From: Bacillus pseudomycoides DSM 12442
GTDB taxonomy: Bacteria; Bacillota; Bacilli; Bacillales; Bacillaceae_G
Direction of reading: 5' to 3'
DNA: 24,000 nt
NCBI RefSeq assembly: GCF_000161455.1
Contig: NZ_CM000745.1
Span: 2,699,496-2,723,495, forward strand
Below, piece by piece: positions 3,452-21,858 of this stretch (positions within the stretch are counted from its first letter, which is position 1; each line of letters begins with the position of its first letter). A program made the translations under genes and the position numbers. The notes under the pieces are model-generated. The model did no database searches and was not told the origin of the DNA. It saw nothing but the letters and a program-made list of their open reading frames with translations.

Positions 3452-3466
3452 GAAAGGAACTGACAT

Positions 3467-4573
3467 ATGCAGTCTATTAAACCATTAATGGAAGAATTAT
3501 ATGAAATAGAATTGAATGCGTTAGAAGCGAATGATTCGTTTCCGAAACCACCTAACTGGCGATTGTCACCGCGTGCCGTTCGGACGTTTATTATTGGACA
3601 AGAAGAACCGCTTCTTTTAGAAGGAAAAGAAGTGGAAATTAGTCGTAAGTTTTATGGTAATGATGCGCTTGTGGAACGAGCAATTGTCACATTAGCAGGA
3701 AACCGAGGACTTATGTTAATCGGAGAGCCAGGAACAGCAAAGACGATGCTAAGCGAGCTGCTTTCTGCCGCAATATGCAGAAATAGCCGTAACACTGTGC
3801 AAGGAACAGCTGCTACGATGGAAGATACGATTAAGTATTCGTGGAACTATGCACTTCTTCTTGCGAAAGGGCCTGTAAGGGGGGCGCTTGTGCCAGGACC
3901 TCTCTTTGTTGGGATGGAACAAGGGATATTAACTAGATTTGAAGAATTGACTCGCTGTCCGCAGGAAGTGCAAGATTCATTGATCAGCGTTCTGAGCGAT
4001 AAAGTACTAAATATTCCGGAGTTTGGGGAGCAAGGAATTCTTACAGCTAAGCCTGGATTTAATATTATTGCGACGGCTAACACACGAGATCGCGGTGTGA
4101 ATGAGATGAGTAGTGCATTGAAGCGTCGTTTTAATTTTGAAACGGTGCATCCGATTAAGGATGTAAAGCTTGAAGCAAAAATAATAGAGTCACAAGTAAC
4201 GCGCTTATTAGGAGCATCAGGCATCACACCCAAAGTGGATGAGACGGTTGTTCAGCTGTTAGCGACTGTTTTTCATGAACTACGGGAAGGTGTAACTGCT
4301 GAAGGAAAACGAATCGATCAGCCATCTTCTGTTATGAGTACTGCAGAAGCAGTATCGGTATATTATCAAAGCGCAATGGATGCGTATTATTATGGAAGCG
4401 GACAAGTGAAGATGGATGCGCTTGTTCGGTATTTATCGGGCACAATTGCGAAAGAAAACAAGGATGATTTAGAAAAGCTGCGCAGTTACTTTACAAGCAT
4501 CGTTAGGGCGCGAGGTCAAGTAGGAGGAGAGGTATGGAAGTCGTTTTTCGAAGCTCGCAATCAGCTGAAGTAA
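3467..4573 (+). CDS. MoxR-type AAA+ ATPase (AAA_5 / YehL-like)
   Basis: 368 aa. Walker A GEPGTAKT; Walker-B-like ILTRFEEL; sensor-1 IIATANTRD; arginine-finger region SALKRRF. Starts 15 nt after the upstream stop. Confidence 0.85.
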   Translation: MQSIKPLMEELYEIELNALEANDSFPKPPNWRLSPRAVRTFIIGQEEPLLLEGKEVEISRKFYGNDALVERAIVTLAGNRGLMLIGEPGTAKTMLSELLSAAICRNSRNTVQGTAATMEDTIKYSWNYALLLAKGPVRGALVPGPLFVGMEQGILTRFEELTRCPQEVQDSLISVLSDKVLNIPEFGEQGILTAKPGFNIIATANTRDRGVNEMSSALKRRFNFETVHPIKDVKLEAKIIESQVTRLLGASGITPKVDETVVQLLATVFHELREGVTAEGKRIDQPSSVMSTAEAVSVYYQSAMDAYYYGSGQVKMDALVRYLSGTIAKENKDDLEKLRSYFTSIVRARGQVGGEVWKSFFEARNQLK

Positions 4574-6846
4574 ATGCATTGTTTCAAAGAGCTTACAATT
4601 TAGATCACAATGTCGTATATGTGCCGATTCGCCATCATAGTCCTGCGTGCTCTTTTCATGTACAAAAGATCGTTAAATTCTATAAACCGGATGCGATTCT
4701 TATAGAAGGACCGATAGATTGCAACCCTCTTATTCCGCATATTGTGAGTGCAGAAAGTGAGGCTCCAATTTGTATATATTGCAGTTATGATGATAAAACG
4801 GATGTGCTTGAAAGAGGAGAAAGTGGAAAGTACCGTGCGTACTATCCCTTTCTCGACTATTCACCGGAACTTGTCGCGCTGCGGGAAGGAGCTGCGCGCA
4901 ATATTCCAGTTTCATTTATTGATCTTCCTTATAAAGAATATTTGTTTGCAACGAAAAATGAGGAAGAGAATGGGAAGTATGACGAGCAATATTTCCGGCA
5001 CAGTCAATATGTCCGTATGCTTTCGGAAAAAACGGGGTGCCGAAGCTTTCATGAATTTTGGGAGAAATACTTTGAGTTGCAAGGCTTTCATATGACAAGC
5101 GAGGAGTTTGTCCGTCAGCTCTTCGATTATTGTTATTATACGCGCGCGGACTATACGCAGGAGATGTTGACAGAAGACGGATGCGAAGCCAGGGAGATAC
5201 ACATGGCAAAGGAAATTGAAAAAGCGCGTAAAGTGTATGACAAGGTGCTCGTTATTACCGGAGGCTTTCATGTGAAAGGGCTTCTTGAATTGGAAGGGAA
5301 AAAGAAAAAGAAAAAGCTGTCCAAAAGCCCATTATCTAAAGCGTATGCCAAAAACTATCTTATGCCGTATTCCTTTTTGGAAAGCGATCAGATGCGTGGC
5401 TATGAGAGCGGTATGCCTGCACCTGCTTTTTACCAACATATTTGGGAGAACAGGGATGAAGCGGTAGCTGAGCAATTTATGATACGAATTGCTAGACAGC
5501 TAAAGGCAGAAGGAATATCAATGGCAGATAAGATTGAAGCTGCGCGAATGATACGTGAACTTGCACTGCTTCGGGGAAAGATGCAACCTGGATTGTATGA
5601 ACTGATGGATGCAGTGCGTAGTGCATTTGTGAAAGGTGAGATATTCTCGGCAGATAAACCTTTAACGCTGCTTCAGAAGAGTTTGCAAGGGACGAAGCGC
5701 GGAAAATTGTCAAAAGAAGCGGATGTGCCGCCGCTCGTGCATGATTTTCGTGCTTCTGTTCGTTCGTTTCGTCTTCCGGCACGTTCTACTGTACCACAGG
5801 AGACGATTCTTGACATATACAAGAAAGAAAGGCACTTGCGTTTAAGTCAGTTCTTTCATTGCCTCGCTTTTTTAGGAGTTCCGTTTTGCGAGAAGCTGCG
5901 CGGTCCGAACCTAGCTAGAAAGCAGAATATTAATCTTATACGAGAAACTTGGAAATATCGTTTCTCAGCGCAGGTGGAAAGTGCTCTTATTGATTTATCT
6001 GTGTATGGCGGAACGGTGAGAGAAGCCGCGCAGGAAATGCTAAGAGCAAAGCTGTATAAGGCGAAAGTGCGTGCGGGAGAGGTGGCTCTTTTATTGCTAG
6101 AAGCCTACTTAAGTGGTTTGTTTTCCGATTTCGCTATGTACAATCAGTTTATAGATGAAGCAATACAGGCGGATGGAGATTTTGCTTCTATGGCAGATTG
6201 TGCTTACTATTTATCACAAATAGAAAAAGAAAATCAGCAAGCGGATCATGCTAGACATAAAGCACTTTCGTTATTTTCTGTTTTAGATGGGGGCGAACCA
6301 GCAATTACTGCGGAAAAACTTATTGATTTGTATACAATGCAGCCTGCAGACCAGCAATTTATTGAAGCACTGGAGCTTTATTTGCAAAGGGAAAAACGAG
6401 AAAGCCAAGTAGAAGGGGCAGTATTTGGGCTGTTAACTTCTTTAGGGAAGCGGAAAATCGATGAGGTAATGCAAGTGGCAGAAGGATATTTTTATGGAAG
6501 TGGCGATATGCAAAAGCAAGCTCCGATATTTTTGAATGGTTTGTTTGCTGGCGCAAAAGATATCTTCTTATATAACGAATCGCTGCTTGACGGAATGTCT
6601 CATGTTCTAGAAGAACTTGATGAAGAGACATTTTTACAAGTATTGCCGCATTTGCGCCTCTTGTTCAGTCAATTCACGCCGCTTGAGGTGGATACGATTG
6701 CTAAACAGATTGCGCGGTTATATGGAGCCACAGAAGAAGTGATAAAAGAAGAAGCAATTTCCGAAGAAGTGCTGACGTATGCAATACAGTTAGATCGCAA
6801 GGCACGGGAAATTTTAATGAGACGGGGGCTAGAAGATGGAGAATAA
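4534..6846 (+). CDS. DUF5682-type protein (YehM-like), 770 aa
   Basis: Long ORF. AGGAGGAG SD at 4522-4529, 4-6 nt before ATG 4534. Overlaps the ATPase gene by 40 nt. Size and position match yehM/DUF5682 in AAA-DUF5682-vWA-SWIM clusters (recall). Confidence 0.7.
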   Translation: MEVVFRSSQSAEVNALFQRAYNLDHNVVYVPIRHHSPACSFHVQKIVKFYKPDAILIEGPIDCNPLIPHIVSAESEAPICIYCSYDDKTDVLERGESGKYRAYYPFLDYSPELVALREGAARNIPVSFIDLPYKEYLFATKNEEENGKYDEQYFRHSQYVRMLSEKTGCRSFHEFWEKYFELQGFHMTSEEFVRQLFDYCYYTRADYTQEMLTEDGCEAREIHMAKEIEKARKVYDKVLVITGGFHVKGLLELEGKKKKKKLSKSPLSKAYAKNYLMPYSFLESDQMRGYESGMPAPAFYQHIWENRDEAVAEQFMIRIARQLKAEGISMADKIEAARMIRELALLRGKMQPGLYELMDAVRSAFVKGEIFSADKPLTLLQKSLQGTKRGKLSKEADVPPLVHDFRASVRSFRLPARSTVPQETILDIYKKERHLRLSQFFHCLAFLGVPFCEKLRGPNLARKQNINLIRETWKYRFSAQVESALIDLSVYGGTVREAAQEMLRAKLYKAKVRAGEVALLLLEAYLSGLFSDFAMYNQFIDEAIQADGDFASMADCAYYLSQIEKENQQADHARHKALSLFSVLDGGEPAITAEKLIDLYTMQPADQQFIEALELYLQREKRESQVEGAVFGLLTSLGKRKIDEVMQVAEGYFYGSGDMQKQAPIFLNGLFAGAKDIFLYNESLLDGMSHVLEELDEETFLQVLPHLRLLFSQFTPLEVDTIAKQIARLYGATEEVIKEEAISEEVLTYAIQLDRKAREILMRRGLEDGE

Positions 6847-7942
6847 CATTTCTTTAAATCGCTGGCGTCTTGTTCTTGGGAAACATGCAGATGACCAAAT
6901 CACATTTCAGGAAGAAGACCCTGCATACAGAGCAATGGATGAGGTACTGGAGTTTTTGTACGAGAGAGAACGCGGAGAAGAACGCGGCGGGTCGTTGGAT
7001 CCCTCTCAGCTAACAGTGCCGACTTGGATTTCGAAAGTGCGGGAGTTATTTCCGAAAGAAACCATTGAGATTATGGAAAATCATGCGCTAGAAAAGTATG
7101 AATTAACGGCTCTATTGCAAGATAAGCAAACGCTTGAAAAAATGGAGCCGAATATGAATTTATTAAAATGCATTTTACAATTTAAAGATTATGTAAAACC
7201 GGATGTATTAGACACAGCTAAACGTATTGTAGCGAAAGTCGCTGAGGAGTTGCGGCGTAATTTAGAGCAAGAAGTGAAGCACGCATTAAGCGGTAGACCA
7301 GATCGAAATCGTTCTAGTCGCGTTCGCACGATGCGCAACTTTGATTTTAAGAAAACGATTCGAAAGAACTTAAAGCATTTTGACAAGGAAACAAACGCCA
7401 TTCATATTGAAAAACCGTACTTTTATGCTGCCACGAAGCACGTTAGCCCATGGCGTGTGATCCTCGCAGTAGACGAGAGCGGAAGTATGATTGATTCTGT
7501 TATTCATAGCGCAGTTATGGCGGGTATTTTTGCAAGCTTACCGACGATTAAGACAGATCTGTTCATCTTTGATACAGCTGTTGTTGATTTAACGGATCGT
7601 ATTGACGACCCGGTGGAAACGCTTATGAGCGTACAGCTTGGGGGAGGAACATATATTGCTCAGGCGCTGCGCTACGCAACGAATAAAATCGAGATGCCTC
7701 ATAAAACAATTGTCGTGCTTGTAACAGACTTATATGAAGGTGGCAGTTACAATGAAATGTACCGAGAAGCGATGAAGATTGTAGAATCAGGAGCAAAGCT
7801 GATCGTGCTAACATCTCTGGATCCGACTGCACAGCCTTTTTATGATAAACAGGCAGCTAAAAAAATGGCGGCGCTCGGTGCTCATGTAGCGGCGTTAACA
7901 CCAGGGAGGTTGGCACAATGGATCGCAACAATCATTTCTTAA
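6836..7942 (+). CDS. von Willebrand factor A (vWA) domain protein with MIDAS (YehP-like)
   Basis: 368 aa. MIDAS DxSxS as ILAVDESGSM, downstream GGGT (QLGGGTYIAQAL) and VLVTDLYEGG. Overlaps the upstream gene by 11 nt. Confidence 0.85.
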   Translation: MENNISLNRWRLVLGKHADDQITFQEEDPAYRAMDEVLEFLYERERGEERGGSLDPSQLTVPTWISKVRELFPKETIEIMENHALEKYELTALLQDKQTLEKMEPNMNLLKCILQFKDYVKPDVLDTAKRIVAKVAEELRRNLEQEVKHALSGRPDRNRSSRVRTMRNFDFKKTIRKNLKHFDKETNAIHIEKPYFYAATKHVSPWRVILAVDESGSMIDSVIHSAVMAGIFASLPTIKTDLFIFDTAVVDLTDRIDDPVETLMSVQLGGGTYIAQALRYATNKIEMPHKTIVVLVTDLYEGGSYNEMYREAMKIVESGAKLIVLTSLDPTAQPFYDKQAAKKMAALGAHVAALTPGRLAQWIATIIS

Positions 7943-9552
7943 ATGTTCTTTCCTCTATTGATGAAACATACTTAATTGCCATGTCTAACAAAGGAACATA
8001 TAAGAGAGCAATGAAGGATTTGGCCGTTGTATCAAATGTCAAAATGGACGTAGAAGAGGGTGCAGCGCAAATACATCTTGATGACGGAATTACTGTAACG
8101 TTTACGGGTGATATACGCAGTTACTCTTGTAGTTGTGAAGCCCGTTCGATTTGTAAACATGTCATTATGGCTCTATTAGAAGCAAAGAAGATGTACGAAG
8201 GTGAAGAGAACATAAAAGTTGATTTCTCTGCTCTTTTGAATGTGAACGTTCGCAATATTGTCTCCGAAAAAATGTGGGCTGAAATGATGTTTCGCGAAAC
8301 ATTTCAGCAAAAGTTTGTTTTAGAAGAAGAGGGGGCTTTAATTGCCACTTTCCGAGAAGAGAATATAACAGTTCGCTTTCTAACAGCTGAATCGGTAGCG
8401 GCTGCGATCTGTACGTGCAAAGCAGAGGGGATATGCCGGCATAAGGCGGAAGCGGTATATTGGTATCAAAAAGAGAAGGGAATCTCGCACGAAACGAAAC
8501 AGATGCATCCTCTTATCATTGCGCCGGATAAGCTATCTATTTTCAAAGAAATGATCGAGCAAATTGTTCACTTTGGATTAACACGCCTTACCGAAAATAC
8601 AATCTATGAAATAGAACAACTTTCTGTAAAAGCACGTTCTTTGAAACTCGCAAAGTTAGAGAATTTATTTCGTAAGCTCGGGGCGGATATTGGGCTATAT
8701 CGGATGAAGCATGCATCTTTTCAAATGGCATCTTATCGGCAAACGGTGTCCGCGATTTATGAACACATTTTGTTGTTGGAACGCCACCATCTGCAAGAGA
8801 GTCCGTTTCGTTCGGAATATTACGAAGTTCCACCACTTATTTTGCATGCTTTTGGTGCATCTGGCTGGCAAACGAAGTCTGGTTATGTTGGTGTGACGTA
8901 TTATTTCTATAATCGAGAACAGGAAAAGTGGATTACATACACACAGTCGCGCCCCATGTTTTATGAAGGGAGCAGCACAACTCCTGAAGAACTCCATGAA
9001 AGGCAAGTTCCATGGGGAATTGCAGGGAAAGGATACGAACTATCTCGTTCATCTGTCCGATTGAAGCAGGCAAAACTTAACGTCGATTTTCAATTGTCAT
9101 CTAGCTCACAGACAGTAGGAGAAGTGGAAGGAAAAACAAATGTGGCAGAGTGGCAATCTCTCTTTTTAACCTCATGGGAAGAACTATTAAAAAAAGTAAA
9201 AGAGCAAAGGTTAGAGGCAAATAAACAAGGAATCTTTTGTATCGAAGTTGCTGAAATAGGAGAATGGAAGTTTCAGAAGCAAGAACAAAAATGGATCATA
9301 CCTCTTATCGATAAGAATGGGAAAACATTGCAAATGCAAATGATGAAACGACCAGAAAATGAGCGAATGATTCGACTTGTAAAAATATATATGGACTCGT
9401 TGCATATAAAGAGAATGCTAGTTCATCCTTATCAGGAAGGAACAAAGCTCGTTGTTACACCTATCATTTTATATACAGAAGCAGGAGAGATTATAAATAC
9501 TACACTGAGTGAAGGGGGAACGTTCTATGATCGAGTTAATGCGCCTAATTGA
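7918..9552 (+). CDS. SWIM zinc-finger protein with two SWIM motifs (YehQ-like)
   Basis: 544 aa. GGGAGG SD 8 nt before ATG 7918. Two CxCx5CxH motifs: CSCEARSICKH (nt 8128-8160) and CTCKAEGICRH (nt 8413-8445). Overlaps the vWA gene by 25 nt. Confidence 0.8.
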   Translation: MDRNNHFLNVLSSIDETYLIAMSNKGTYKRAMKDLAVVSNVKMDVEEGAAQIHLDDGITVTFTGDIRSYSCSCEARSICKHVIMALLEAKKMYEGEENIKVDFSALLNVNVRNIVSEKMWAEMMFRETFQQKFVLEEEGALIATFREENITVRFLTAESVAAAICTCKAEGICRHKAEAVYWYQKEKGISHETKQMHPLIIAPDKLSIFKEMIEQIVHFGLTRLTENTIYEIEQLSVKARSLKLAKLENLFRKLGADIGLYRMKHASFQMASYRQTVSAIYEHILLLERHHLQESPFRSEYYEVPPLILHAFGASGWQTKSGYVGVTYYFYNREQEKWITYTQSRPMFYEGSSTTPEELHERQVPWGIAGKGYELSRSSVRLKQAKLNVDFQLSSSSQTVGEVEGKTNVAEWQSLFLTSWEELLKKVKEQRLEANKQGIFCIEVAEIGEWKFQKQEQKWIIPLIDKNGKTLQMQMMKRPENERMIRLVKIYMDSLHIKRMLVHPYQEGTKLVVTPIILYTEAGEIINTTLSEGGTFYDRVNAPN

Positions 9553-9805
9553 TGAATTGGAAGAAGTTCTAGATGAGATGCTTGTCTCAGGAGCAGGGAC
9601 TGTCCCTCTTTCCTTTTTTCAGGATATAAAACGAGAATGCGAAAAGTATGGTCTTTCTTATGCTGCCACGCAGGTGCTTATCATAGAGGAAGAGCGAAAC
9701 AAGGCCCGCTTTCTTCATAAAGAAGAAACAAACAAACTGACAGAAGCATTTTGTAAGTTGCAGGAATATATTCAAGTTATAAAGGCTGAAATGCTGCATT
9801 TATAA
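9527..9805 (+). CDS. Small (92 aa) predicted helical protein of unknown function, last gene of the operon
   Basis: GAAGGGGGA SD at 9511-9519 then ATG 9527 (the ORF track starts at GTG 9509). Overlaps the SWIM gene by 26 nt. No recognisable motif. Confidence 0.5.
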   Translation: MIELMRLIDELEEVLDEMLVSGAGTVPLSFFQDIKRECEKYGLSYAATQVLIIEEERNKARFLHKEETNKLTEAFCKLQEYIQVIKAEMLHL

Positions 9806-9930
9806 ATAGCTGGGTTAGTAGATGAATATTGAATTTAAATAAAAAGGTTTTCGCTAGAAGTATGCTGAAGAAGAAACGAAAACGCTCGCAGTGGGGAGAA
9901 ATTGTACTGATTTTCCGAAAGTACTAATAA

Positions 9931-9959
9931 TTGCCAAAATATTAATTTGCAAGTATAAT
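9931..9959 (+). promoter_or_regulatory. Sigma-A-type promoter for the Y-RNA array
   Basis: TTGCCA (9931-9936), 17-nt spacer, TATAAT (9954-9959). Predicted start about 9966, roughly 25 nt before the first Y-RNA unit. Confidence 0.55.
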
Positions 9960-9991
9960 AATAGTAAGAACGATGAGTGATAAAAAGAAAA

Positions 9992-10132
9992 GGGCAGTGT
10001 AGGAAAGAATTTCTTCGCCTTTCACGCGGTAGGTCGCAGGTTCGAATCCTTGCCTTCCCTGATGTTTTATTAACATTAGGGGAGTAGCTCAGTTTGGTAG
10101 AGCAACATATTGAGTCTTTCCGCCTATCTCCC
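9992..10132 (+). ncRNA. Y RNA, YrlA-like (unit 1) with circularly permuted tRNA-like module
   Basis: Terminal stem GGG(C)AG..UA..GGAAAGA (9992-10008) pairs with UCUUUCC..UA.CU.CCC (10115-10132). T-arm with GGTTCGAATCC (10039-10049). 7-bp acceptor-like helix CUUCCCU/AGGGGAG capped by hairpin AUGUU-UUAUU-AACAU. D-arm TAGCTCAGTTTGGTAGAGCA (10085-10104). T6 tract follows. Lies next to rsr. Confidence 0.78.
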
Positions 10133-10160
10133 TTTTTTATAATTCATATTTAATAGATTT

Positions 10161-10285
10161 GGGCAGTGTAGAGAAGGATTTCTTCGCTTTGGGTGCCGTG
10201 TGTCATGGGTTCGAATCCCATCCTTCCCATTTTGGAAGGTAGCTCAGTGGTAGAGCAACGTAATGAGCCTTTTCGCTTATCTCCC
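10161..10285 (+). ncRNA. Y RNA, YrlA-like (unit 2) with circularly permuted tRNA-like module
   Basis: Same architecture as unit 1. GGG(C)AG..UA..GAGAAGG (10161-10177) pairs with CCUUUUC..UA.CU.CCC (10268-10285). Perfect T-arm AUGGG-UUCGAAU-CCCAU (10205-10221). Acceptor-like CCUUCC/GGAAGG closed by a short loop. D-arm TAGCTCAGTGGTAGAGCA (10240-10257). Confidence 0.78.
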
Positions 10286-10306
10286 AAATCTTTAAACATT
10301 ATATAT

Positions 10307-10481
10307 AACAGGAACAGTGTAGATAGCCCATGCTTCGTTTGCTAATATTAAGTGCTATAGATTCGATCCTAATCGATGCGGAAAGGTCCGCACCGAATTC
10401 GTACTTTTCTTTGATTCATAACACTAAGGTAGGAGTTACTTCGTCATATAGGGATTGTGTTTGTGGGATTCGATTCCTGTT
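10307..10481 (+). ncRNA. Third, divergent Y-RNA-like/structured RNA unit
   Basis: Perfect 8-bp closing helix AACAGGAA (10307-10314) / TTCCTGTT (10474-10481). Shares the CAGTGTAG motif (10315-10322) with units 1 and 2. Two T-loop-like GATTCGATYC motifs (10359-10369, 10465-10477). Internal hairpin GCGGA-AAGG-UCCGC near 10377-10390. No clear D-arm. Confidence 0.4.
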
Positions 10482-10512
10482 TTGAATATTTCTTAAGTGT
10501 TAGGAATGAGTG

Positions 10513-10545
10513 AAAAAAGGCAACGTATATACGTTGCCTTTTTTA
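10513..10545 (+). terminator. Rho-independent terminator closing the Y-RNA array
   Basis: A-tract, palindrome GGCAACGTAT/ATACGTTGCC (10519-10538), then T6 (10539-10544). Confidence 0.8.
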
Positions 10546-10557
10546 TTTGTATTTCAA

Positions 10558-10581
10558 CCAGCAGTGTCAAAAAATCTCTGG
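10558..10581 (+). promoter_or_regulatory. Mini-hairpin in the rsr leader that mimics the Y-RNA terminal stem and overlaps the SD
   Basis: CCAG(C)AG-UGU...AU-CU-CUGG. Pairs 10558:10581, 10559:10580, 10560:10579, 10561:10578, bulged C10562, then 10563:10577 and 10564:10576. Shares the strings GCAGUGU and AUCUC with units 1 and 2. G10580-G10584 is the SD for ATG 10594. Confidence 0.35.
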
Positions 10582-10593
10582 GGGTAGATCATA

Positions 10594-12063
10594 ATGTCAA
10601 AGTTTAATCATTCTTCTCAAGGAAGCCGTCAAACATATACAAAAGAGGGCGGAAAAGCTTATAAAATGTATGATAAAGATAAATTAGTTACGATGGTATT
10701 AACATCTTTCTTTAATGAGCCAAAATTTTATGGTAATAACAGCGAAGAATTAGTTACTACTGCAAAACAAATCATGGACAGAGACCCTAAATTTGTTGCA
10801 AGTTTAGCAGTCTATGCACGTGAAGTGTTCTACATGCGTTCTGTTACACATGTATTAGCAGTGGAACTTGCAAACCACCCTGAAGGTCGTAAATATGCTC
10901 GTCAAACAGTTTCTCGTATTGCGCAGCGTCCGGATGATGTAACAGAAATAATGGCATATCAATTAGGGGTATATGGTCGGAAAAATCCAATTCCAAACTC
11001 TTTGAAAAAGGGGTTAGCAGATGCCTTTTCTACATTTGATGAATATCAATTAGCAAAATACAATCGCACAGGAAAAGACGTTACATTGAAAGATGTATTC
11101 CGTTTAGTAAGCCCATCTGCCAAAAAAGGAACAGAACGTTACGAACTTTATAAACGTTTGTTAGAAAACACACTGCAAGTACCATATACATGGGAAACAC
11201 AGCTTTCTCAAAAAGGAAACAAAAAAGAAGTGTGGGAAGAATTAATTGATAGCGGAAAAGTGGGTTATATGGCCTTACTTCGTAACCTTCGCAATATCGT
11301 AAATTCAGGTGCCTCAAATATTGATACAGTATATAACATTCTTCGCGATCCTGAGCGAGTAAAAAAATCAAAACAATTACCATTTCGCTTTTTTTCAGCA
11401 TATCGTGTTGTGCAAGAAAAATTACCACAAGCAGGAAGCGAATTATTAGATATATTGAATGACGCAATTGAAGCATCTGTTACAAACATGCCGAGATTAT
11501 CAGGAACAACATTTATGACAGCAGATATCTCAGGATCTATGACATGTTATCCTGTTTCAAAAGATGGGAGTGTTAAATGTGCAGATATTGCTACACTAAT
11601 GATGGCAATGGCACACTCCTTCTGTGATAATTCTATTACATCTGTATTCGCAACTGATTTCAAAGCGATAAATGTTTCTACCCGTTCTGGTATTTTAGAG
11701 AACATGAACACATTTTTATCAGAAGTTAATAAACATGGATATGGAACAAACTTACATCTTTCTATCAAATATTTATTAGATCACAAAATCAAAGTTGACC
11801 GCATTCTTGTCTTCTCTGATGAGCAAGTGTACGGAGATAGGTATGGAGACAATTCTTCACAAATTCTTCTTGAAACATATCGTCGTGAAATGAATCCTGA
11901 TGTTTGGGTTCACTCTTTCAATTTAAATAGTTACGGTAATCAACAATTCGTAGGAGAGAAAACAAATTTAATCGGTGGCTGGAGTGAAAAATGTTTGGAC
12001 TTCATTCATTATGCGGAAGAAGGAACAGGTTCCCTTATTTCAGCTATCGAAAATTATCAATAA
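10594..12063 (+). CDS. rsr: Ro60-related protein Rsr (TROVE domain + C-terminal vWA/MIDAS)
   Basis: 489 aa. N-terminal TROVE-like sequence (KLVTMVLTSFFNEPKFYGN, FVASLAVYAREVFYMRSVTHVL, YMALLRNLRNI, LPFRFFSAY). C-terminal MIDAS TADISGSMT. Adjacent to the Y-RNA-like genes. Confidence 0.9.
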   Translation: MSKFNHSSQGSRQTYTKEGGKAYKMYDKDKLVTMVLTSFFNEPKFYGNNSEELVTTAKQIMDRDPKFVASLAVYAREVFYMRSVTHVLAVELANHPEGRKYARQTVSRIAQRPDDVTEIMAYQLGVYGRKNPIPNSLKKGLADAFSTFDEYQLAKYNRTGKDVTLKDVFRLVSPSAKKGTERYELYKRLLENTLQVPYTWETQLSQKGNKKEVWEELIDSGKVGYMALLRNLRNIVNSGASNIDTVYNILRDPERVKKSKQLPFRFFSAYRVVQEKLPQAGSELLDILNDAIEASVTNMPRLSGTTFMTADISGSMTCYPVSKDGSVKCADIATLMMAMAHSFCDNSITSVFATDFKAINVSTRSGILENMNTFLSEVNKHGYGTNLHLSIKYLLDHKIKVDRILVFSDEQVYGDRYGDNSSQILLETYRREMNPDVWVHSFNLNSYGNQQFVGEKTNLIGGWSEKCLDFIHYAEEGTGSLISAIENYQ

Positions 12064-12376
12064 TTTTTGTTACACTCTTTTTATTTAGAAGACGGAATAA
12101 TTAGGATAACGGCAGGTCTAGTTAACCATGATGCAATAAAAAAGAAACTCATAATCTTTATTTTAAGAAACCAATGATTTTCTAATGAAAGCAGGGTTAC
12201 CTGGAGCTGCTCGTCCATTTCTATGATTTGAGCCGTTAGCTAATCTTGGCGAGGATAGATTAACTACAAAAGCAACTGGATAGTAACAAACAATAAATTG
12301 CCTACTGATAAGATAAAACTAGTTTATGAAATTTTAATAAAGCATGCTGTTAATTCCAGTATTAAGGAGTTTGAAA

Positions 12377-12721
12377 ATGAAAATAAATAATAGTGAGTAT
12401 GGTGGTTTTGTCGTTTCAAAAAATATTCTGGCTGGAAAACCAGTTAGATATTCATTTAGACAAGAAAGTTCTATCCCGCAATTAAATGGCTGGAATTTGT
12501 ATGCTATAGATGATACTGATGACTATGTGAATCATGCAGAAAATTTTATCATCTTAAACGCGGAATCTATTTTTAAAATCGTCCCTGTAATGTTTGAGAT
12601 TTTTGAAGCTCCTTTTGGAACGGATCTATGCTGGCTATATGAAGAAGGAGTTCATATTGGATTTTATGATGTAGTCGCCGATAAAGAAGTGACCATTAAT
12701 GAACTTATAAAACAAAACTAG
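12377..12721 (+). CDS. Small hypothetical protein, possibly DUF2185/Imm33-like
   Basis: AAGGAG SD at 12365-12370, 6 nt before ATG 12377 (the ORF track starts at 12344). Family call is weak recall only. Confidence 0.5.
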   Translation: MKINNSEYGGFVVSKNILAGKPVRYSFRQESSIPQLNGWNLYAIDDTDDYVNHAENFIILNAESIFKIVPVMFEIFEAPFGTDLCWLYEEGVHIGFYDVVADKEVTINELIKQN

Positions 12722-12770
12722 TTTTTTCATGTAGCTCTATTTTATAAGTTCTTTAGTAGATGACAAACAA

Positions 12771-12815
12771 GCCCCTTATAAGCCCCTTCCAACCCCCTTA
12801 TAAACCCCTACCAAG
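12771..12815. repeat. Four tandem 11-bp iteron-like direct repeats
   Basis: GCCCCTTATAA / GCCCCTTCCAA / CCCCCTTATAAA / CCCCTACCAAG. One copy per helical turn, about 185 bp upstream of the DnaD-type replication gene. Confidence 0.55.
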
Positions 12816-12999
12816 TAATAAATCATTAAATAAACAAAAGAAAAAACAACTACAAGAACTACTATGAAAAAATAAAAAAGTAACATTCTAGTACTAGTAA
12901 AAATTATAAAATAAATCCACCAAATTCCTGCCTGCAATCCTATATATAGAAGGAGTAACCAATTCTATATTTACCACTAAAAAGGCGGGAGGAAGAAAC

Positions 13000-13872
13000 A
13001 TGGGAGTATACCGGAGTGTACAGGTGAATTTTTGGCAAGATGAGTTTGTACTTGATTTAACGCCAGAGGAGCGCTATTTTTATATGTATTTGCTGACATG
13101 TTCGAAGACGACACAATGCGGGATTTACTCACTGCCACTACGTTTGGTAGAGATGGAAACGGGGTATAACCGTGAAACTGTTGAGAAGTTGTTGCAAAGG
13201 TTTGTTGCGTATGGAAAGATATTATATGACGCGAAAACGAAGGAGTTATATGTTCTAAATTGGTTACGTTATAACCCTGTTACAAATACGAACATAGAAA
13301 AGTGTGTGTTACGTGAGTTAAAGACTGTGAAAAATAAAGAGTTTGTACATATGTTTCTTCAAAGATGCCTCGAGGAAGAGTTGAATATTCCGTTATTGTT
13401 AGAACATTTCGGAATGCCAGTTGAAGTATCTGATGTGATTCCGCAAGAAGTTTTTCAAGGTTGTGCACAGGATGAGAAAGTAGAAGAAGTAGAAGAAAAA
13501 GCGAATCCAGGTAGCAGTGTATTCACATTTTATGAACAAAACTTCGGTAGTTTGTCATCATATGCAGCGAAGGAATTAAGTGAATGGGTTACGGATTTGT
13601 CGGAGGAGCTTGTACTAAAGGCACTTCAGATTGCCTATGAAAATAATAAGCGGACGCTTGCTTATGTGAAGGGGATTTTACGAGATTGGCATGGGAAAGG
13701 ATATACGAAGCTCAGTGAAATAGAGGAAGCAGCAGCGAAGTTTCGAAAGAAGGAGCCGTCTATTCTTTATGAGACGGAGAAGTTTTTGGAGGAGTGTGAA
13801 GAGTGGAAGAAGAATGTTCCGTCTGAGGAAGAATTACAGAAGTTCTTGCAGGAACAAGGGTGGCAGCCGTGA
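13000..13872 (+). CDS. Phage/plasmid replisome organiser with DnaD-like C-terminal domain
   Basis: 290 aa. GGGAGG SD. N-terminus VQVNFWQDEFVLDLTPEERYFYMYLLT is typical of the phage replisome-organiser N domain. C-terminus FYEQNFG..ELSEW..ALQIAYENNKRTLAYVKGILRDWHGKG is DnaD-like. Confidence 0.85.
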   Translation: MGVYRSVQVNFWQDEFVLDLTPEERYFYMYLLTCSKTTQCGIYSLPLRLVEMETGYNRETVEKLLQRFVAYGKILYDAKTKELYVLNWLRYNPVTNTNIEKCVLRELKTVKNKEFVHMFLQRCLEEELNIPLLLEHFGMPVEVSDVIPQEVFQGCAQDEKVEEVEEKANPGSSVFTFYEQNFGSLSSYAAKELSEWVTDLSEELVLKALQIAYENNKRTLAYVKGILRDWHGKGYTKLSEIEEAAAKFRKKEPSILYETEKFLEECEEWKKNVPSEEELQKFLQEQGWQP

Positions 13873-14057
13873 GTATTCAACATATCGAGGCGGAACAAAT
13901 GGTGTTAGGATCTTTGCTTCTTGATGGTGAACTAATTAAGGAGTGTCACCTGATTGAGCGGTACTTTTCTATGGGTGTGTATCAAACTATATTCAATTCG
14001 ATACGAAAAATAAAGGAAGACGGGCTGCAGTTAGACAAGATAATTTTACTTAAGTAG
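13869..14057 (+). pseudogene. Truncated replicative DNA helicase (DnaB N-terminal fragment, about 62 aa)
   Basis: GTGA start/stop overlap with the DnaD-like gene. IEAEQMVLGSLLLDGELI is the conserved DnaB N-terminal signature. The ORF stops after about 60 codons, whereas DnaB-type helicases are several hundred residues. Confidence 0.7.
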
Positions 14058-14116
14058 ATTAACTTGCATGCTAGTTTTGGATGGAGCTTGAAGAATTAGA
14101 AAAAGGAGATCTTAAA

Positions 14117-14584
14117 ATGATAATAAACGATGCCGTTTTTGGTGAACTTGAATATAATTACGGATGGGTAAGGTACACTACTATAACGTTTTGTGGAAAG
14201 GAAGCTAAGATAGCGTTAATGGTAGATGGCGAAGAGGAAAGTGGATTTGATAAAGAACAATATGAATCATATGATTCATTGATGGAAAATTGGGAGCAAG
14301 TGCAACAAAGTATTTTGCAACCGATTTTAGACTATTATAAACAAAAAAGGTATGAGCTTGGTTATGATATTGAATTTAATGAACATTATCCTTTAATTGA
14401 AACAACTGATCAACTTCTTAATAGGATAAGTTTAGTTGGAATTGTTGTTCCGTATGCGGGTATTTTTGAAGGTCGAGGGATCGGACTCACCTTCGACTGT
14501 ACATGGGATATGGAAAATGGTTTAGGTCTTCTTCTTATAAATGAAAAGGTAACCGAAGTGGGCTATCAGGATGTTGCGATTTGA
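14117..14584 (+). CDS. Hypothetical protein, immunity-protein-like (family uncertain, possibly DUF6985/DUF2004-type)
   Basis: AAGGAG SD 8 nt before ATG 14117 (the ORF track starts at 14081). Small, acidic and cytoplasmic. Sits at the head of the immunity-type gene array. Confidence 0.55.
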   Translation: MIINDAVFGELEYNYGWVRYTTITFCGKEAKIALMVDGEEESGFDKEQYESYDSLMENWEQVQQSILQPILDYYKQKRYELGYDIEFNEHYPLIETTDQLLNRISLVGIVVPYAGIFEGRGIGLTFDCTWDMENGLGLLLINEKVTEVGYQDVAI

Positions 14585-14684
14585 ATAGGGTGAAGTAATA
14601 TAAAGATAGCTTAGAGTTTTCTTTTAAAATATGAAATTGATGAAGAAAAGAAGACGCTCAATTATATTATGTGTAAAGAGTTTT

Positions 14685-14717
14685 AATTTAAATTTAAATT
14701 TAAATTTAAATTTAAAT
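14685..14717. repeat. Hexanucleotide microsatellite (AATTTA) x 5.5
   Basis: Perfect AATTTA repeats from 14685, running into the ATG at 14716. Confidence 0.95.
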
Positions 14718-15234
14718 GAAGCATGAGGTGAATGAATTGTTTACAAAAGATACATACATTAGCTCGGTAAAAGAAAATCTTGAAAAAAATTCAGAAAGGT
14801 TGATTCATAATATAAGGGAAATTCTTAATTTTAATTATTACAGTAAAATAGAGTTAGTAGATTTTATGATTTTTATCGGATCGTTTGACCTTTCTATCAT
14901 GATGTTTTCTATGAATAGAGAAGCAAGTGAGGTTTTTTACGAAGGAAACGATAGCAGTGTTTTTGCAGGAAGTCATGAATTACTCGAACGTATATCATAC
15001 TATAACCTTTCTTATGATAAATCAGACGAGTTCTGGGAGTTTTATGAAGAAAACGATGAGATCATATCGGAAGATGAGGAAAAAATCATTGTGGAATGGT
15101 TTATTGATTGCTGGAATAAAGCAAATGGAGGAAGTATAAAATTACCTGCCTATTGTGGTTTTCATGATGCTAATCAATCATTTGACTTGCAGAAAAATAT
15201 ATGGGTTTCTGATGAGGAAAAGTGGTGGGATTAA
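14716..15234 (+). CDS. Hypothetical acidic protein (172 aa), immunity-protein-like context
   Basis: ORF with Bacillus-like codon usage. The real start may be TTG 14737, 6 nt after GAGGTG (14725-14730). No recognisable motif. Confidence 0.5.
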   Translation: MKHEVNELFTKDTYISSVKENLEKNSERLIHNIREILNFNYYSKIELVDFMIFIGSFDLSIMMFSMNREASEVFYEGNDSSVFAGSHELLERISYYNLSYDKSDEFWEFYEENDEIISEDEEKIIVEWFIDCWNKANGGSIKLPAYCGFHDANQSFDLQKNIWVSDEEKWWD

Positions 15235-15383
15235 TACGCAAAAGATAACGGCTTGTTTTTTAGAGTATCACAGAATAGAGAAAAATGATTTTTACTGAAA
15301 GAGGATATGTCTAACGAACTTATGCCGATGATACACAATCAAAAAGAGATGGTGAAAATAATTTACCAAGGAGTGGAACTACG

Positions 15384-15812
15384 GTGGAGATTGAAGTGAT
15401 TCATGAAAAATTATCATTAGAAGAGTTAGAAGCTTTTGAGGAAAAACATCAGTTGCGATTACCGAAATATTATAGAGAGTTTTTATTAAAATATAATGGA
15501 GGCTATCCAAAGGCAAGTATGTATAAAATCTCTGATGATGCAGGAGAAAGTGTATTAAATATTTTCTATGGAATTGGGAGTATGTATGATAATTTGGATA
15601 AAATAATAGATTTTTTTGATGATCTTTTAGATATGGGATTTATACCAATTGCAGATGATCCTGGCGGTAACCAAATATGTTTGGGGATCAATGAGGAATA
15701 CTGTGAAAAAATCTTTCATTGGGCTCATGATGAAGAGCACGACGGTATGAAAAATATGTATTTTTTAGCCAATAATATAAATGAATTTCTTGATTATTTA
15801 TATGAGGAGTAA
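15384..15812 (+). CDS. SMI1/KNR4 (SUKH-1) family immunity-type protein
   Basis: 142 aa. Typical SUKH signature LPKYYREFLLKYNGG plus later FIPIADDPGGNQICL. AAGGAG SD upstream of GTG 15384. Confidence 0.85.
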   Translation: MEIEVIHEKLSLEELEAFEEKHQLRLPKYYREFLLKYNGGYPKASMYKISDDAGESVLNIFYGIGSMYDNLDKIIDFFDDLLDMGFIPIADDPGGNQICLGINEEYCEKIFHWAHDEEHDGMKNMYFLANNINEFLDYLYEE

Positions 15813-15881
15813 AGTTAAACAGTTATATAGCCTTCAGGGGAATAGAATAAAAATTCATGTGTATAAAGGGGAATTCAAAGA

Positions 15882-16451
15882 ATGATTCATTATGGAGAGC
15901 TGTATTATGACCATTATAGTAAATACCTAGGTGAGCCAATCGACCGGGAAGTATTTAAAAATGGTGAGGACATGCCGAGTATACAAATTTTGAAATATGA
16001 AAATGTATTTGAAGAATGTCTTGTTTTTCATACACTTGGGTTTAGTAGATATGAAGAAATAGTAGGGGATAATGTTGAAGTTTCCATGGTAGTTGATGGG
16101 GCATTTCGTAGTGTAGGATATATTTTGGCAAATGCTTTATTTTATTGTATAGCGAATCGAATAGAAATAGGTCGTGGAACAGCAATTAGTGGCATTGAAA
16201 GTATTGATAAGTCTTTTGTTCGAAAATACAATAAAAGTGCAGTTTACTTTACTGAACCGTTCGCTTTCCCAGAGGAATACAGCTATGTACTGACTGGAAA
16301 TGCAGAAAAGGATGGTAAAGTGTTGCTGGCATTTTTTATTTCGGAGTCGGAATATGAATATTTTCTAAAATACGGAACAGAGAAATTTGAGGAATTATTA
16401 GAAGAGAATCATGTGGATCCTTTTCATGTTAGCAGGGAGTCTATAAATTGA
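15882..16451 (+). CDS. Suppressor-of-fused (SUFU)-like domain protein, immunity-type
   Basis: 189 aa. HYSKYLGEP...IQILKY...FHTLGFS pattern recalled from bacterial SUFU-domain proteins. AAAGGGGA SD. Confidence 0.65.
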   Translation: MIHYGELYYDHYSKYLGEPIDREVFKNGEDMPSIQILKYENVFEECLVFHTLGFSRYEEIVGDNVEVSMVVDGAFRSVGYILANALFYCIANRIEIGRGTAISGIESIDKSFVRKYNKSAVYFTEPFAFPEEYSYVLTGNAEKDGKVLLAFFISESEYEYFLKYGTEKFEELLEENHVDPFHVSRESIN

Positions 16452-21509: not shown

Positions 21510-21730
21510 AACTTCCCCACCTTTTTTAGTTATTCATTGGTTCTGAAATCATGCTTGAATTTATTGTGGTTTTGAGGTCGCATTCTTTTTGGACAAGAAC
21601 CAATGTACTTCTATCATATGGTTATTACAAAAAAAGGAATGGGCTTCTATTCTTCTTCATTAGCACATTTTTAATAGAATCCAAGAGTTGTTAGATTGCT
21701 GATAATCCTCGATTATGTCAACGAAGAAAG

Positions 21731-21780: not shown

Positions 21781-21858
21781 GCTGATAATGATAGGTTATG
21801 TAAACTTCACATGAATAAGATATATAATATAAAAATAACGATTAACTGAGGTGAGAGT

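What the first reader, a model, noticed from the sequence alone, without database searches (positions are those of the whole stretch)
9931..10545. Three tandem Y-RNA-like genes under a single promoter and terminator, immediately upstream of rsr
Seen: TTGCCA-17-TATAAT at 9931-9959. Three structured units follow (9992-10132, 10161-10285, 10307-10481), each opening with the shared motif CAGTGTAG (9995, 10164, 10315). A single strong terminator sits at 10513-10545. Established: bacterial Ro60 orthologues (Rsr) are typically encoded next to one or two Y RNAs, for example Salmonella rsr-yrlBA-rtcBA, and Deinococcus. Inference: here the RNAs lie upstream of rsr, number three, and must be cut out of a precursor of about 580 nt. 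That implies a processing pathway and possibly functional specialisation of the three RNAs.
Basis: partly seen in the sequence, partly recalled or inferred. Interest (0 to 1): 0.7.

Follow-up and report, generated by a model that had tools for sequence, protein, structure and literature searches.

The report
Tandem tRNA-like Y RNA genes beside rsr
Just upstream of a bacterial Ro60 (rsr) gene lie two intact tRNA-mimicking Y RNA genes and the decayed remains of further copies, all apparently made as one transcript; this is a clear but ordinary new example of a known RNA-protein partnership.

Summary
A near-consensus promoter (9931-9959), three CAGTGTAG-headed units and a strong terminator (10513-10544) precede rsr (10594-12063, TROVE plus Ro60 vWA domains). 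The block is conserved in six Bacillus species.

- **Units 1 and 2** (9990-10134, 10159-10287) are YrlA-class Y RNAs. They have a terminal stem with a bulged C, then T arm, closed acceptor-like stem-loop and D arm in the permuted order. Across 19 firmicute units, 21 of 29 pairs show compensatory change. Rfam's YrlA model scores only 33 and 45 bits (gathering 69).
- **Unit 3** (10307-10481) is not a third intact gene. It is homologous to two separate units of a relative with 81% Rsr identity. Its stem 2, 3' strand motif and tRNA-like domain are missing. It changes at about the synonymous rate with large indels, and its core motif is mutated in two species.
- **What is claimed as new is not.** Upstream position, several copies and a polycistronic precursor are all documented for Deinococcus radiodurans. 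Phage rsr loci carry arrays of up to about 11 units.

Verdict: new members of a known kind, of moderate interest. Co-transcription, processing and Rsr binding are inferred, not shown.

The parts
9931..9959 (+). Sigma-A-type promoter, TTGCCA-17-TATAAT. The predicted start is near 9966, about 25 nt before unit 1.
   Evidence: It matches 11 of 12 consensus positions. Hexamers and spacing are unchanged in five relatives, while the flanks diverge. Homology with relatives begins about 20 nt upstream of the -35.
9990..10134 (+). Unit 1, a YrlA-class Y RNA. Stem 1 is AAGGG with CCCTT, followed by a bulged C and the pair AG/CU, then the GUGUAG loop. Stem 2 is GAAAGAA with UCUUUC. The T arm is 10036-10053, the long acceptor-like stem-loop 10054-10084 and the D arm 10087-10103. 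The 3' strand is 10112-10134.
   Evidence: Rfam YrlA scores 33.2 bits, E = 2.9e-5, over the full model. The structure is supported by covariation on alignment A2. Identity to distant Bacillus relatives is 92-93%, against 79% at rsr four-fold sites.
10159..10287 (+). Unit 2, a YrlA-class Y RNA and a paralogue of unit 1 (about 72% identical). The T arm is 10204-10222, the short acceptor-like stem-loop 10223-10239 and the D arm 10242-10256. The 3' strand is 10265-10287.
   Evidence: Rfam YrlA scores 44.7 bits, E = 1.4e-8. Covariation supports the structure. Identity is 92-94% against a neutral 79%. ARAGORN's 'tRNA-Pro' at 10160-10230 is a miscall on its 5' half.
10307..10500 (+). Unit 3, a degenerate composite. 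The 5' module of an ancestral unit (AACAGGAA CAGTGTAG ... CTTCG, 10307-10337) is followed by a conserved hairpin (10373-10396). Then come the remains of a second YrlA-type unit: AAGG-TAG-GAGTTACTTCG at 10426-10452, half a T arm at 10463-10477, and the 3' strand GAATATTTCTTAAG at 10484-10499. A closing stem of 10307-10314 with 10474-10481 is possible.
   Evidence: It aligns with two separate units of L011. Model R1 scores them 44 and 89 bits in L011, but only 6.6 and 12.2 bits here. Identity is 81-84% with 55-63 gap columns, against a neutral 79%. Only 1 of 33 predicted pairs shows compensatory change. The motif reads CATTGTAG in L002 and L003.
10513..10550 (+). Intrinsic terminator with a 14-pair stem, an A run before it and a T run after it.
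   Evidence: 98% identity. It is also present in L011.
10558..10581 (+). Leader hairpin CCAG-C-AG-UGUCAAAAAAU-CU-CUGG, abutting the Shine-Dalgarno GGGGG (10580-10584). It copies the base of a Y RNA: stem, bulged C, AG/CU pair and the AGUGU motif.
   Evidence: It is conserved in all Bacillus loci and in L011. L012 has AAAG with CUUU in place of CCAG with CUGG. R1 scores it at noise level, 7.5 bits. Its function is a hypothesis only.
10594..12063 (+). rsr, the bacterial Ro60 orthologue (489 aa).
   Evidence: It carries TROVE and vWA_Ro60 domains. It is 94-97% identical to the TROVE proteins of Bacillus arachidis, B. bruguierae, B. bingmayongensis and others.

Best explanation
The interval is a Y RNA gene array belonging to a self-contained cassette of promoter, array, terminator and rsr, in a Bacillus genome (Rsr 94-97% identical to B. 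arachidis, B. bingmayongensis and relatives).

**What it contains.**
- Units 1 and 2 are intact YrlA-class Y RNAs. In each, a stem formed by the 5' and 3' ends carries the presumed Rsr-binding module: stem 1, a bulged C, an AG/CU pair, a GUGUAG loop, stem 2, then UUnCUUCG. This stem encloses a permuted tRNA-like domain of variable region, T arm, closed acceptor-like stem-loop and D arm.
- Unit 3 is what remains of two further units. It is probably not a working Y RNA of the same kind.

**How it most likely works (inferred, not shown).**
1. The sigma-A promoter at 9931-9959 makes one transcript of about 580 nt.
2. Most transcripts stop at the terminator at 10513-10544.
3. A fraction reads through to translate rsr, which has no recognisable promoter of its own. 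The RNAs are therefore made in excess over the protein.
4. The units are released by endonuclease cuts in the A/U-rich spacers, followed by exonuclease trimming up to the stem protected by Rsr.
5. By analogy with D. radiodurans and Salmonella, each Y RNA then tethers Rsr to an effector such as PNPase, or gates access to the Rsr ring. The tRNA-like domain is the effector-binding or stabilising end.
For: - **Rfam.** YrlA hits unit 2 (44.7 bits, E = 1.4e-8) and unit 1 (33.2 bits, E = 2.9e-5).
- **Covariation.** In the alignment of 19 firmicute units, 93.6% of cells are paired, against 74.3% in shuffles and 46-58% in slid controls. Compensatory change is seen in 21 of 29 pairs, and 0 of 500 shuffles reach any of the five measures.
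- **Tertiary contact.** The Levitt-pair equivalent covaries: G:C in 15 units, A:U in 3, mismatch in 1. The UA linker and the T-loop and D-loop consensus are present.
- **Constraint.** Units 1 and 2 are 92-94% identical between species where rsr four-fold sites are 79%.
- **Position and strand.** A model built from these units finds further, non-training units only next to rsr and on its strand in the first 14 loci. In 70 viral rsr loci, all 182 hits with E < 1e-3 are on the rsr strand. An HMM of the 5' motif alone gives 62 hits, all on the + strand.
- **Transcription signals.** Promoter and terminator are conserved, and the scan finds no internal signals.
- **Cassette.** Homology with relatives starts at the promoter, and the flanking genes differ between species.
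- **Co-transcription in relatives.** In Clostridium and phage relatives the last unit ends 11-40 nt before the rsr start codon with no terminator visible in the loci I read (L009, L010, L013, L014).
- **Precedent.** D. radiodurans makes a polycistronic Y RNA precursor from genes upstream of rsr (PMC4201824).
- **Unit 3 decay.**
Against: - No hit reaches Rfam's gathering score.
- The literal Rsr motif of published YrlAs, GNCGAAN0-1G, is absent from the 5' strand. A different conserved motif, GGCAGUGUAG, sits at the equivalent position, so Rsr binding rests on position and on conservation across Y-like units.
- There is no expression, processing or binding data.
- MFE folding of unit 2 alone is unremarkable (z = -0.9).
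- The strong terminator between the array and rsr could mean that rsr is expressed in some way I did not detect.
- Unit 3 keeps conserved blocks. It is more similar between the window and L001 (94%) than four-fold sites are (87.5%), so some function for it is not excluded.
Confidence: 0.8

Rival explanations
1. Unit 3 is a working third Y RNA with a new, non-tRNA-like effector module. The 5' strand CAGUGUAG, held in place by the closing stem AACAGGAA with UUCCUGUU, binds Rsr. The interior is lineage-specific.
For: - CAGTGTAG is kept in five of seven species, and the 3' strand GTTCCTGTTT is unchanged in all seven.
- The MFE fold uses the closing stem, with z = -2.0.
- The hairpin at 10373-10396 shows one compensatory pair.
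- The blocks at 10402-10428 and CGTCATATAGG (10442-10452) are invariant among the Bacillus loci.
- Ro60 mainly contacts the 5' strand of Y RNA (PMC4201824; bioRxiv 10.1101/312249).
Against: - Substitution runs at about the synonymous rate, with 55-63 gap columns.
- The G that is invariant in all 19 intact units is T in L002 and L003.
- Changes in the 5' strand of the closing stem in L007 and L005 are not compensated.
- Stem 2 and the 3' UAUCU element are missing.
- R1 scores are at noise level.
- The region aligns with two separate intact units in L011.
Confidence: 0.25
2. The whole 600 nt is mainly a cis-acting leader of the rsr mRNA. The terminator acts as a regulated attenuator, and the structured elements sense a signal such as free Rsr or tRNA status, rather than giving trans-acting RNAs.
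For: - No promoter is detectable between the terminator and rsr.
- A Y-like mini-hairpin sits on the Shine-Dalgarno sequence.
- In many relatives the last unit abuts the ribosome-binding site.
Against: - In several viral loci the units lie downstream of rsr (L033, L038, L045, L051, L057, L065).
- YrlA-class RNAs are established trans-acting partners of Rsr (PMC4201824).
- No known riboswitch or leader family matches.
- This reading is compatible with the best explanation rather than exclusive of it.
Confidence: 0.1
3. The units are tRNA genes or tRNA pseudogenes: tandem or dimeric tRNAs misread as Y RNAs.
For: - ARAGORN calls tRNA-Pro at 10160-10230.
- Rfam tRNA gives a weak hit at 9993-10060 (17.5 bits).
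- Dimeric tRNAs are a known source of false YrlA hits (PMC4201824, Methods).
Against: - The T arm comes before the D arm, with a closed stem-loop between them.
- There is no anticodon arm, and no second T arm follows the D arm.
- The Rfam tRNA score is below gathering (29 bits).
- ARAGORN calls nothing in the near-identical relatives.
Confidence: 0.03

Closest known systems
Salmonella Typhimurium YrlA and the YrlA family (Rfam RF02553; Chen et al. 2014, PMC4201824; Wang et al. 2018, bioRxiv 10.1101/312249)
   Same: - A stem formed by the 5' and 3' ends, plus a permuted tRNA-like domain of variable region, T arm, closed acceptor-like stem-loop, UA linker and D arm.
- The T-loop and D-loop consensus, and the Levitt-pair covariation.
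- Location within 4 kb of rsr on the same strand.
   Different: - The units score below Rfam's gathering score.
- The 5' strand motif is GGCAGUGUAG...UUnCUUCG instead of GNCGAAN0-1G, and the 3' strand (UAUCU plus stem) is also conserved.
- They lie upstream of rsr under a sigma-A-type promoter, not inside an RtcR/sigma-54 rsr-yrlBA-rtcBA operon.
- No rtcB or rtcA was found among the 20 window ORFs scanned against Pfam.
Deinococcus radiodurans Yrn1 and Yrn2 locus
   Same: Several small RNAs are encoded upstream of rsr. Yrn2, tRNA-Asp and Yrn1 are made as one polycistronic precursor and processed (PMC4201824, section 9). Both strands of the Rsr-binding helix are recognisable.
   Different: The tRNA-like module of Yrn1 is oriented differently and belongs to a separate lineage. 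The Deinococcus locus has experimental support; this one has none.
Thermus phage phiLo Yrl1 and Yrl2 (PMC12135203), and the mycobacteriophage and Bacillus phage G Y RNAs cited there
   Same: Two or more Y-like RNAs lie directly upstream of a Ro60 gene on the same strand.
   Different: Those were identified through a CGAA motif. Binding to Ro60 and PNPase was shown in vitro for phiLo. The window locus does not look like a phage.
Short hairpin Y RNAs: Salmonella and M. smegmatis YrlB, D. radiodurans Yrn2
   Same: Short units of this kind accompany YrlA-type units in the relatives L009, L010, L011 and L014.
   Different: None is intact in the window. Unit 3 is not of this type, and the leader mini-hairpin is much smaller.

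Membership tests
YrlA (Rfam RF02553) | Covariance-model score at or above the curated gathering score (69 bits) | tested here: not met
   There is no hit at gathering. Unit 2 scores 44.7 bits and unit 1 scores 33.2 bits, with locally significant E-values. Clostridium relatives also score only 39-41 bits, so the Rfam model under-scores the firmicute units in these loci.
YrlA-class Y RNA (Chen et al. 2014) | T arm with a tRNA-like loop (GGUUCGAAUCC) | tested here: met
   The T arms are at 10036-10053 and 10204-10222. The loop is invariant in 19 units, and the stem shows compensatory change in 3 of 5 pairs.
YrlA-class Y RNA (Chen et al. 2014) | D arm (AGCUCAGU-GGUAGAGC) placed after the T arm, with a closed acceptor-like stem-loop between them and a UA linker | tested here: met
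   D arms are at 10087-10103 and 10242-10256. All 6 pairs of the acceptor-like stem show compensatory change. The UA linker is nearly invariant.
YrlA-class Y RNA (Chen et al. 2014) | Levitt-pair equivalent covaries (G15:C48 or A15:U48) | tested here: met
   G:C in 15 units, including both window units; A:U in 3; A:C in 1.
YrlA-class Y RNA (Chen et al. 2014) | Motif GNCGAAN0-1G near the 5' end (presumed Rsr contact) | tested here: not met
   The literal motif is absent from the 5' strands of units 1 and 2. At the same position, the junction of stem 1 and the internal loop, all 19 firmicute units carry G-N-(C/U)-AGUG-(C/U)-A. I read this as a lineage variant, which is an inference.
YrlA-class Y RNA (Chen et al. 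2014) | Encoded within 4 kb of rsr on the same strand | tested here: met
   The units lie 307-604 nt upstream of rsr on the same strand.
Y RNA (functional definition) | Bound and stabilised by Ro60/Rsr; tethers or gates an effector | not testable with these tools
   This needs Rsr immunoprecipitation or EMSA.
Polycistronic Y RNA operon (D. radiodurans type) | Several Y RNAs cut from one precursor | not testable with these tools
   Only the signals could be checked: one conserved promoter, one terminator, and no internal signals.
YrlA-class or short Y RNA, for unit 3 | Intact terminal stem module (stem 1, 5' motif, stem 2, 3' UAUCU strand) | tested here: not met
   R1 scores are 6.6 and 12.2 bits, which is noise. 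Stem 2 and the 3' element are missing. Only 1 of 33 pairs shows compensatory change.
tRNA | Cloverleaf in the standard order with an anticodon arm; Rfam tRNA at 29 bits or more | tested here: not met
   Rfam tRNA scores 17.5 bits. ARAGORN's tRNA-Pro call at 10160-10230 is not reproduced in any relative.

The most novel reading that the evidence does not exclude
Two readings more novel than 'more YrlAs' are not excluded.

**(a) Y RNA genes of Firmicutes and their phages form birth-and-death tandem families beside rsr.**
- Arrays run from 2 to about 11 units. They mix short hairpin, permuted tRNA-like and unpermuted tRNA-like forms, and often sit inside phage tRNA islands.
- The window would be a small, partly decayed chromosomal instance.
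- Such arrays could supply Rsr with a panel of adaptors or tRNA decoys, for example in conflicts over tRNA cleavage and repair.

**(b) The minimal Y-like hairpin on the rsr ribosome-binding site (10558-10581) is an operator.** Free Rsr would repress its own translation through it. It would be the retained stump of the unit that abuts the ribosome-binding site in Clostridium and phage relatives.
Probability: 0.2. Interest if true: 0.6.

Novelty: new member of a known kind. Interest (0 to 1): 0.38.

Why it matters
It adds an unannotated pair of YrlA-class Y RNAs in a Bacillus lineage (relatives include a B. cereus group isolate). Rfam's gathering threshold misses them, and ARAGORN miscalls one as tRNA-Pro. 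It also defines a firmicute version of the presumed Rsr-binding module, with both strands conserved.

The comparative material shows that tandem Y RNA arrays beside rsr are common. They gain and lose units, which bears on why cells and phages keep several Y RNAs. It also yields a testable idea about Rsr autoregulation through a Y-like leader hairpin. None of this changes the current picture of Ro60/Y RNA biology. The value lies in annotation and in a genetically tractable model for Y RNA function.

Tried and rejected
- **Rfam at gathering threshold on the whole window:** nothing.
- **BLASTN of 9900-10600 against plasmids and phages:** no match. The cassette is not a known plasmid or phage sequence.
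- **tRNA reading:** rejected, because of the permuted order, the missing anticodon arm, the sub-threshold Rfam tRNA score, and an ARAGORN call that relatives do not reproduce.
- **Small ORFs in the array (10193-10345, 10330-10485):** rejected as coding, because indels between species are not multiples of three (10, 11, 13 and 15 nt).
- **Internal promoter at TATAAT 10138-10143, or terminator at the T run after unit 1:** there is no -35 at usable spacing. The T run is interrupted in L002, L003 and L004, and the scan reports neither.
- **Own promoter for rsr in 10545-10593:** only 7 of 12 matches by eye. The 9-of-12 matches that the scan reports in L001 and L011 (GTGYCA...GATAAT) would place the start beyond the ATG.
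- **Functional link to the upstream DUF4132, MoxR, DUF5682, VWA and SWIM operon:** rejected as a conserved association. Only one of the relatives with enough upstream sequence shares it.
- **Single-sequence MFE folding:** uninformative for unit 2.
- **Literature:** the Annual Review on bacterial Ro60 (PMC10870794) and the supplementary tables of Chen et al. 2014 are not held. I could not check whether Bacillus or Clostridium loci were already listed there.
Full report
**1. What is in the sequence**

The interval lies between a small ORF ending at 9805 and a 489-aa ORF at 10594-12063. That ORF carries a TROVE domain (E = 2.4e-40) and the Ro60 vWA domain, so it is rsr.

- TTGCCA-17-TATAAT at 9931-9959 matches 11 of 12 consensus positions and is the best promoter-like site in 9400-12400.
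- A 14-pair stem with a T tail lies at 10513-10544.
- The scan reports no other + strand promoter-like or terminator-like site between them.
- CAGTGTAG occurs at 9995, 10164 and 10315 on the + strand, and once more on the - strand at 9500. The expectation is 0.31 per window, and 0 of 100 shuffles reach 4.

**2. Origin and conservation**

Rsr is 94-97% identical to proteins of Bacillus arachidis, B. bingmayongensis, B. bruguierae, a B. cereus group isolate and three unnamed Bacillus strains.

- In five of these genomes the whole block is present: promoter, unit 1, unit 2, unit 3, terminator and leader. B. arachidis lacks the promoter and unit 1. In a seventh (L006) the contig ends just upstream of rsr, so only the terminator tail and leader can be seen.
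- Homology starts about 20 nt upstream of the -35.
- The flanking genes differ between species. Only Bacillus sp. Xin1 shares the upstream VWA, SWIM and orf98 genes.

The promoter, array, terminator and rsr thus behave as one cassette.

I used four-fold degenerate sites of rsr as a neutral yardstick. The table gives identity between the window and the more distant relatives L002, L003 and L004.

| Region | Identity | Gap columns |
|---|---|---|
| rsr four-fold sites | 79% | - |
| Unit 1 | 92-93% | 0-1 |
| Unit 2 | 92-94% | 0 |
| Unit 3 (aligned columns) | 81-84% | 55-63 |
| Terminator | 98% | 1 |
| Leader | 96-98% | 0 |

**3. Units 1 and 2 are YrlA-class Y RNAs**

Rfam gives no hit at gathering thresholds. 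A permissive search of 9800-10650 gives YrlA (RF02553) as the two best hits: unit 2 at 44.7 bits (E = 1.4e-8, tRNA-like core only) and unit 1 at 33.2 bits (E = 2.9e-5, full length). The gathering score is 69.

Clostridium and Blautia rsr loci also give sub-threshold YrlA hits directly upstream of rsr. So do a metagenomic relative with 81% Rsr identity and two phage-like contigs, by inspection and by my own model.

I aligned 19 such units (alignment A2). RNAalifold returns five helices in this order:
1. stem 1, with a bulged C and an AG/CU pair;
2. stem 2;
3. the T arm;
4. a closed acceptor-like stem-loop;
5. the D arm.

Compensatory change is seen in 21 of 29 pairs. On the named structure, 93.6% of cells pair, against 74.3% in column shuffles and 46-58% when the partners are slid. 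None of 500 shuffles reaches any of the five measures. The tertiary Levitt-pair equivalent also covaries: G:C in 15 units, A:U in 3, mismatch in 1. Chen et al. reported the same for YrlA (PMC4201824).

The T-loop GGUUCGAAUCC, the D-loop AGCUCAGU(UU)GGUAGAGC and the UA linker are all present.

The literal GNCGAAN0-1G motif of published YrlAs is not. At the equivalent place every firmicute unit has G-N-(C/U)-AGUG-(C/U)-A, followed after stem 2 by UUnCUUC. The 3' strand carries (U/A)U(C/U)UC just before stem 1. I take this as the firmicute form of the Rsr-binding module. That is an inference from position and conservation, not a test.

ARAGORN's 'tRNA-Pro' at 10160-10230 combines the 5' stem and T arm of unit 2. 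It is not called in any near-identical relative.

**4. Unit 3 is not a third equivalent gene**

In the relative L011, the stretch that aligns with unit 3 consists of two separate, intact units. Model R1, built from A2, scores them as follows.

| Locus | Unit 3a part | Unit 3b part |
|---|---|---|
| L011 | 44 bits (unit 3a was not in the training set) | 89 bits (unit 3b, L011_d, was in the training set) |
| Window | 10310-10415: 6.6 bits (noise) | 10420-10553: 12.2 bits, E about 0.1-0.35 |
| Bacillus sp. Xin1 (L005) | not significant | 24 bits, with many broken pairs |

The alignment shows what was lost in the Bacillus lineage:
- the 3' closing strand of the first unit, apparently deleted between CTTTTCT repeats;
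- CAGTG and stem 2 of the second unit;
- most of that unit's tRNA-like domain.

Different Bacillus species carry different indels of 10, 11, 13, 15 and more than 50 nt. The G that is invariant in all 19 intact units is T in L002 and L003 (CATTGTAG). RNAalifold on the seven Bacillus copies finds 1 of 33 pairs with compensatory change, and a covariation term of -0.66 kcal/mol.

Some points go the other way:
- A closing stem, AACAGGAA with TTCCTGTT, is possible in all seven species. Two 5' strand changes in it are uncompensated.
- Several blocks are invariant.
- Between the window and B. arachidis, unit 3 is more similar (94%) than four-fold sites are (87.5%).

I rate a functional unit 3 at about 0.25.

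L011 shows the opposite pattern. Its counterpart of unit 2 is reduced to its two ends, and it has an extra short hairpin unit at the front. B. arachidis and Xin1 carry unit-1-type sequence inside unit 2, which looks like gene conversion. The array therefore gains, loses and homogenises units.

**5. Mechanism**

*Shown:* the RNA architecture, its conservation, the transcription signals, and the strict association with rsr in position and strand.

*Inferred:*
- One transcript of about 580 nt starts near 9966.
- Termination at 10513-10544 is incomplete. Read-through supplies the rsr mRNA, since no usable promoter lies in 10545-10593.
- The units are excised by cuts in the A/U-rich spacers and trimmed to the Rsr-protected stem.
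- Function is by analogy with D. radiodurans and Salmonella, where Y RNA tethers Rsr to PNPase (PMC4201824; bioRxiv 10.1101/312249).

Co-transcription is the more plausible because of the relatives. In Clostridium and phage loci the last unit ends 11-40 nt before the rsr start codon, and the four such loci I read (L009, L010, L013, L014) show no terminator in between.

**6. Comparison with what is known**

They are not.
- D. radiodurans encodes five small RNAs upstream of rsr. Yrn2, tRNA-Asp and Yrn1 are made as one polycistronic precursor (PMC4201824, section 9).
- Thermus phage phiLo has Yrl1 and Yrl2 upstream of its Ro60 gene (PMC12135203).
- Chen et al. list 355 YrlAs in 276 genomes.

My own survey agrees. 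In 70 IMG/VR loci encoding Rsr, R1 finds 182 hits with E < 1e-3. All are on the rsr strand, most lie within 2.5 kb upstream, and some lie just downstream. Most loci have two or more. One 182-kb viral contig (L017) has about 11 units by inspection.

I found no paper in the held library that describes such large arrays. The key review and the 2014 supplementary tables are not held, so I do not claim that the arrays are new.

**7. Verdict**

Units 1 and 2 are real, constrained YrlA-class Y RNA genes, unannotated under Rfam's threshold. They are new members of a known kind. Unit 3 is most likely a vestige.

The finding is sound but ordinary for this system. The points of some interest are the firmicute binding-module variant, the turnover of units within arrays, and the Y-like hairpin on the rsr ribosome-binding site.

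Noticed in passing
window 10558-10581 (the leader runs 10547-10593): The hairpin CCAG-C-AG-UGUCAAAAAAU-CU-CUGG copies the base of a Y RNA (stem, bulged C, AG/CU pair, AGUGU) and ends in the Shine-Dalgarno GGGGG. It is conserved in all Bacillus loci and in L011. L012 has AAAG with CUUU instead of CCAG with CUGG. In many relatives a full Y unit ends 11-40 nt before the rsr start codon. It may be an operator for Rsr autoregulation, or the stump of a lost unit. R1 scores it at noise level (7.5 bits).
   Followed up: partly
L017:1-2016 (IMG/VR UViG_3300037280_000066, a 182-kb contig): About 11 tandem Y-like units lie upstream of rsr, of mixed types: short hairpin and permuted tRNA-like. Two (167-291 and 1757-1890) have the D arm before the T arm, the normal tRNA order, inside a Y-type terminal stem.
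   Followed up: partly
L013:930-2290 and 3827-7623 (Logan SRR17380414, phage-like); also L031 and L045: About 9 Y-like units (motif GAUAGCGUAG...GUUACUUCG) lie upstream of rsr, and 26 tRNA genes follow it directly. In phages the Y array and rsr sit inside tRNA gene islands. R1 hits that cover only model positions 47-107 in these islands are probably artefacts of adjacent tRNAs.
   Followed up: partly
L011:413-485: The counterpart of window unit 2 is reduced to its 5' and 3' ends by an internal deletion, while the two units corresponding to window unit 3 are intact. This is the reverse of the pattern in the window.
   Followed up: yes
L001:250-378 and L005:3519-3647: Unit 2 of B. arachidis and of Bacillus sp. 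Xin1 carries the unit-1-type variable region and T stem (CGCCTGTCACGCGGTAGGTCG...). This suggests gene conversion between the tandem paralogues. B. arachidis lacks unit 1 and the promoter altogether.
   Followed up: partly
window 10160-10230: ARAGORN calls a tRNA-Pro (UGG) here. It is a false call on the 5' half of unit 2 and would mislead automatic annotation.
   Followed up: yes
window 23-9552: A five-gene operon encodes DUF4132 with HEAT repeats, a MoxR-type AAA_5 ATPase, DUF5682, a CoxE-like VWA protein and a SWIM zinc-finger protein. It lies next to the cassette in the window and in Bacillus sp. Xin1 only, so it is not a conserved partner of rsr.
   Followed up: partly
window 12344-16451 and 19980-23856: Downstream of rsr is a run of immunity-type and conflict-type genes: Imm33, DUF6985, SUKH/SMI1-KNR4, SUFU-like, a weak Tli3-like match, Tubby_C-like and an M78/IrrE-like peptidase, plus a DnaB_2 replication-initiation domain protein. 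This looks like a variable island.
   Followed up: no
L007:4001-5466 (B. bingmayongensis FJAT-13831): rsr is split into two tblastn segments with a frame shift near residue 260-275, while the Y RNA array upstream is intact. It is either a pseudogene or an assembly error.
   Followed up: no
L009:3590-3625 and L010:3700-3735: Two Clostridium loci share the box GCAA(A/G)(G/C)TTTTTGTCTGTAACT upstream of their Y arrays. It may be a promoter or an operator.
   Followed up: no
window 10402-10428 and 10496-10512: TACTTTTCTTTGATTCATAACACTAAG and GTGTTAGGAATGAGTGA are invariant or nearly so among the Bacillus loci and largely kept in L011, although they lie in a spacer or vestige. They could be processing sites or part of terminator control.
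   Followed up: no
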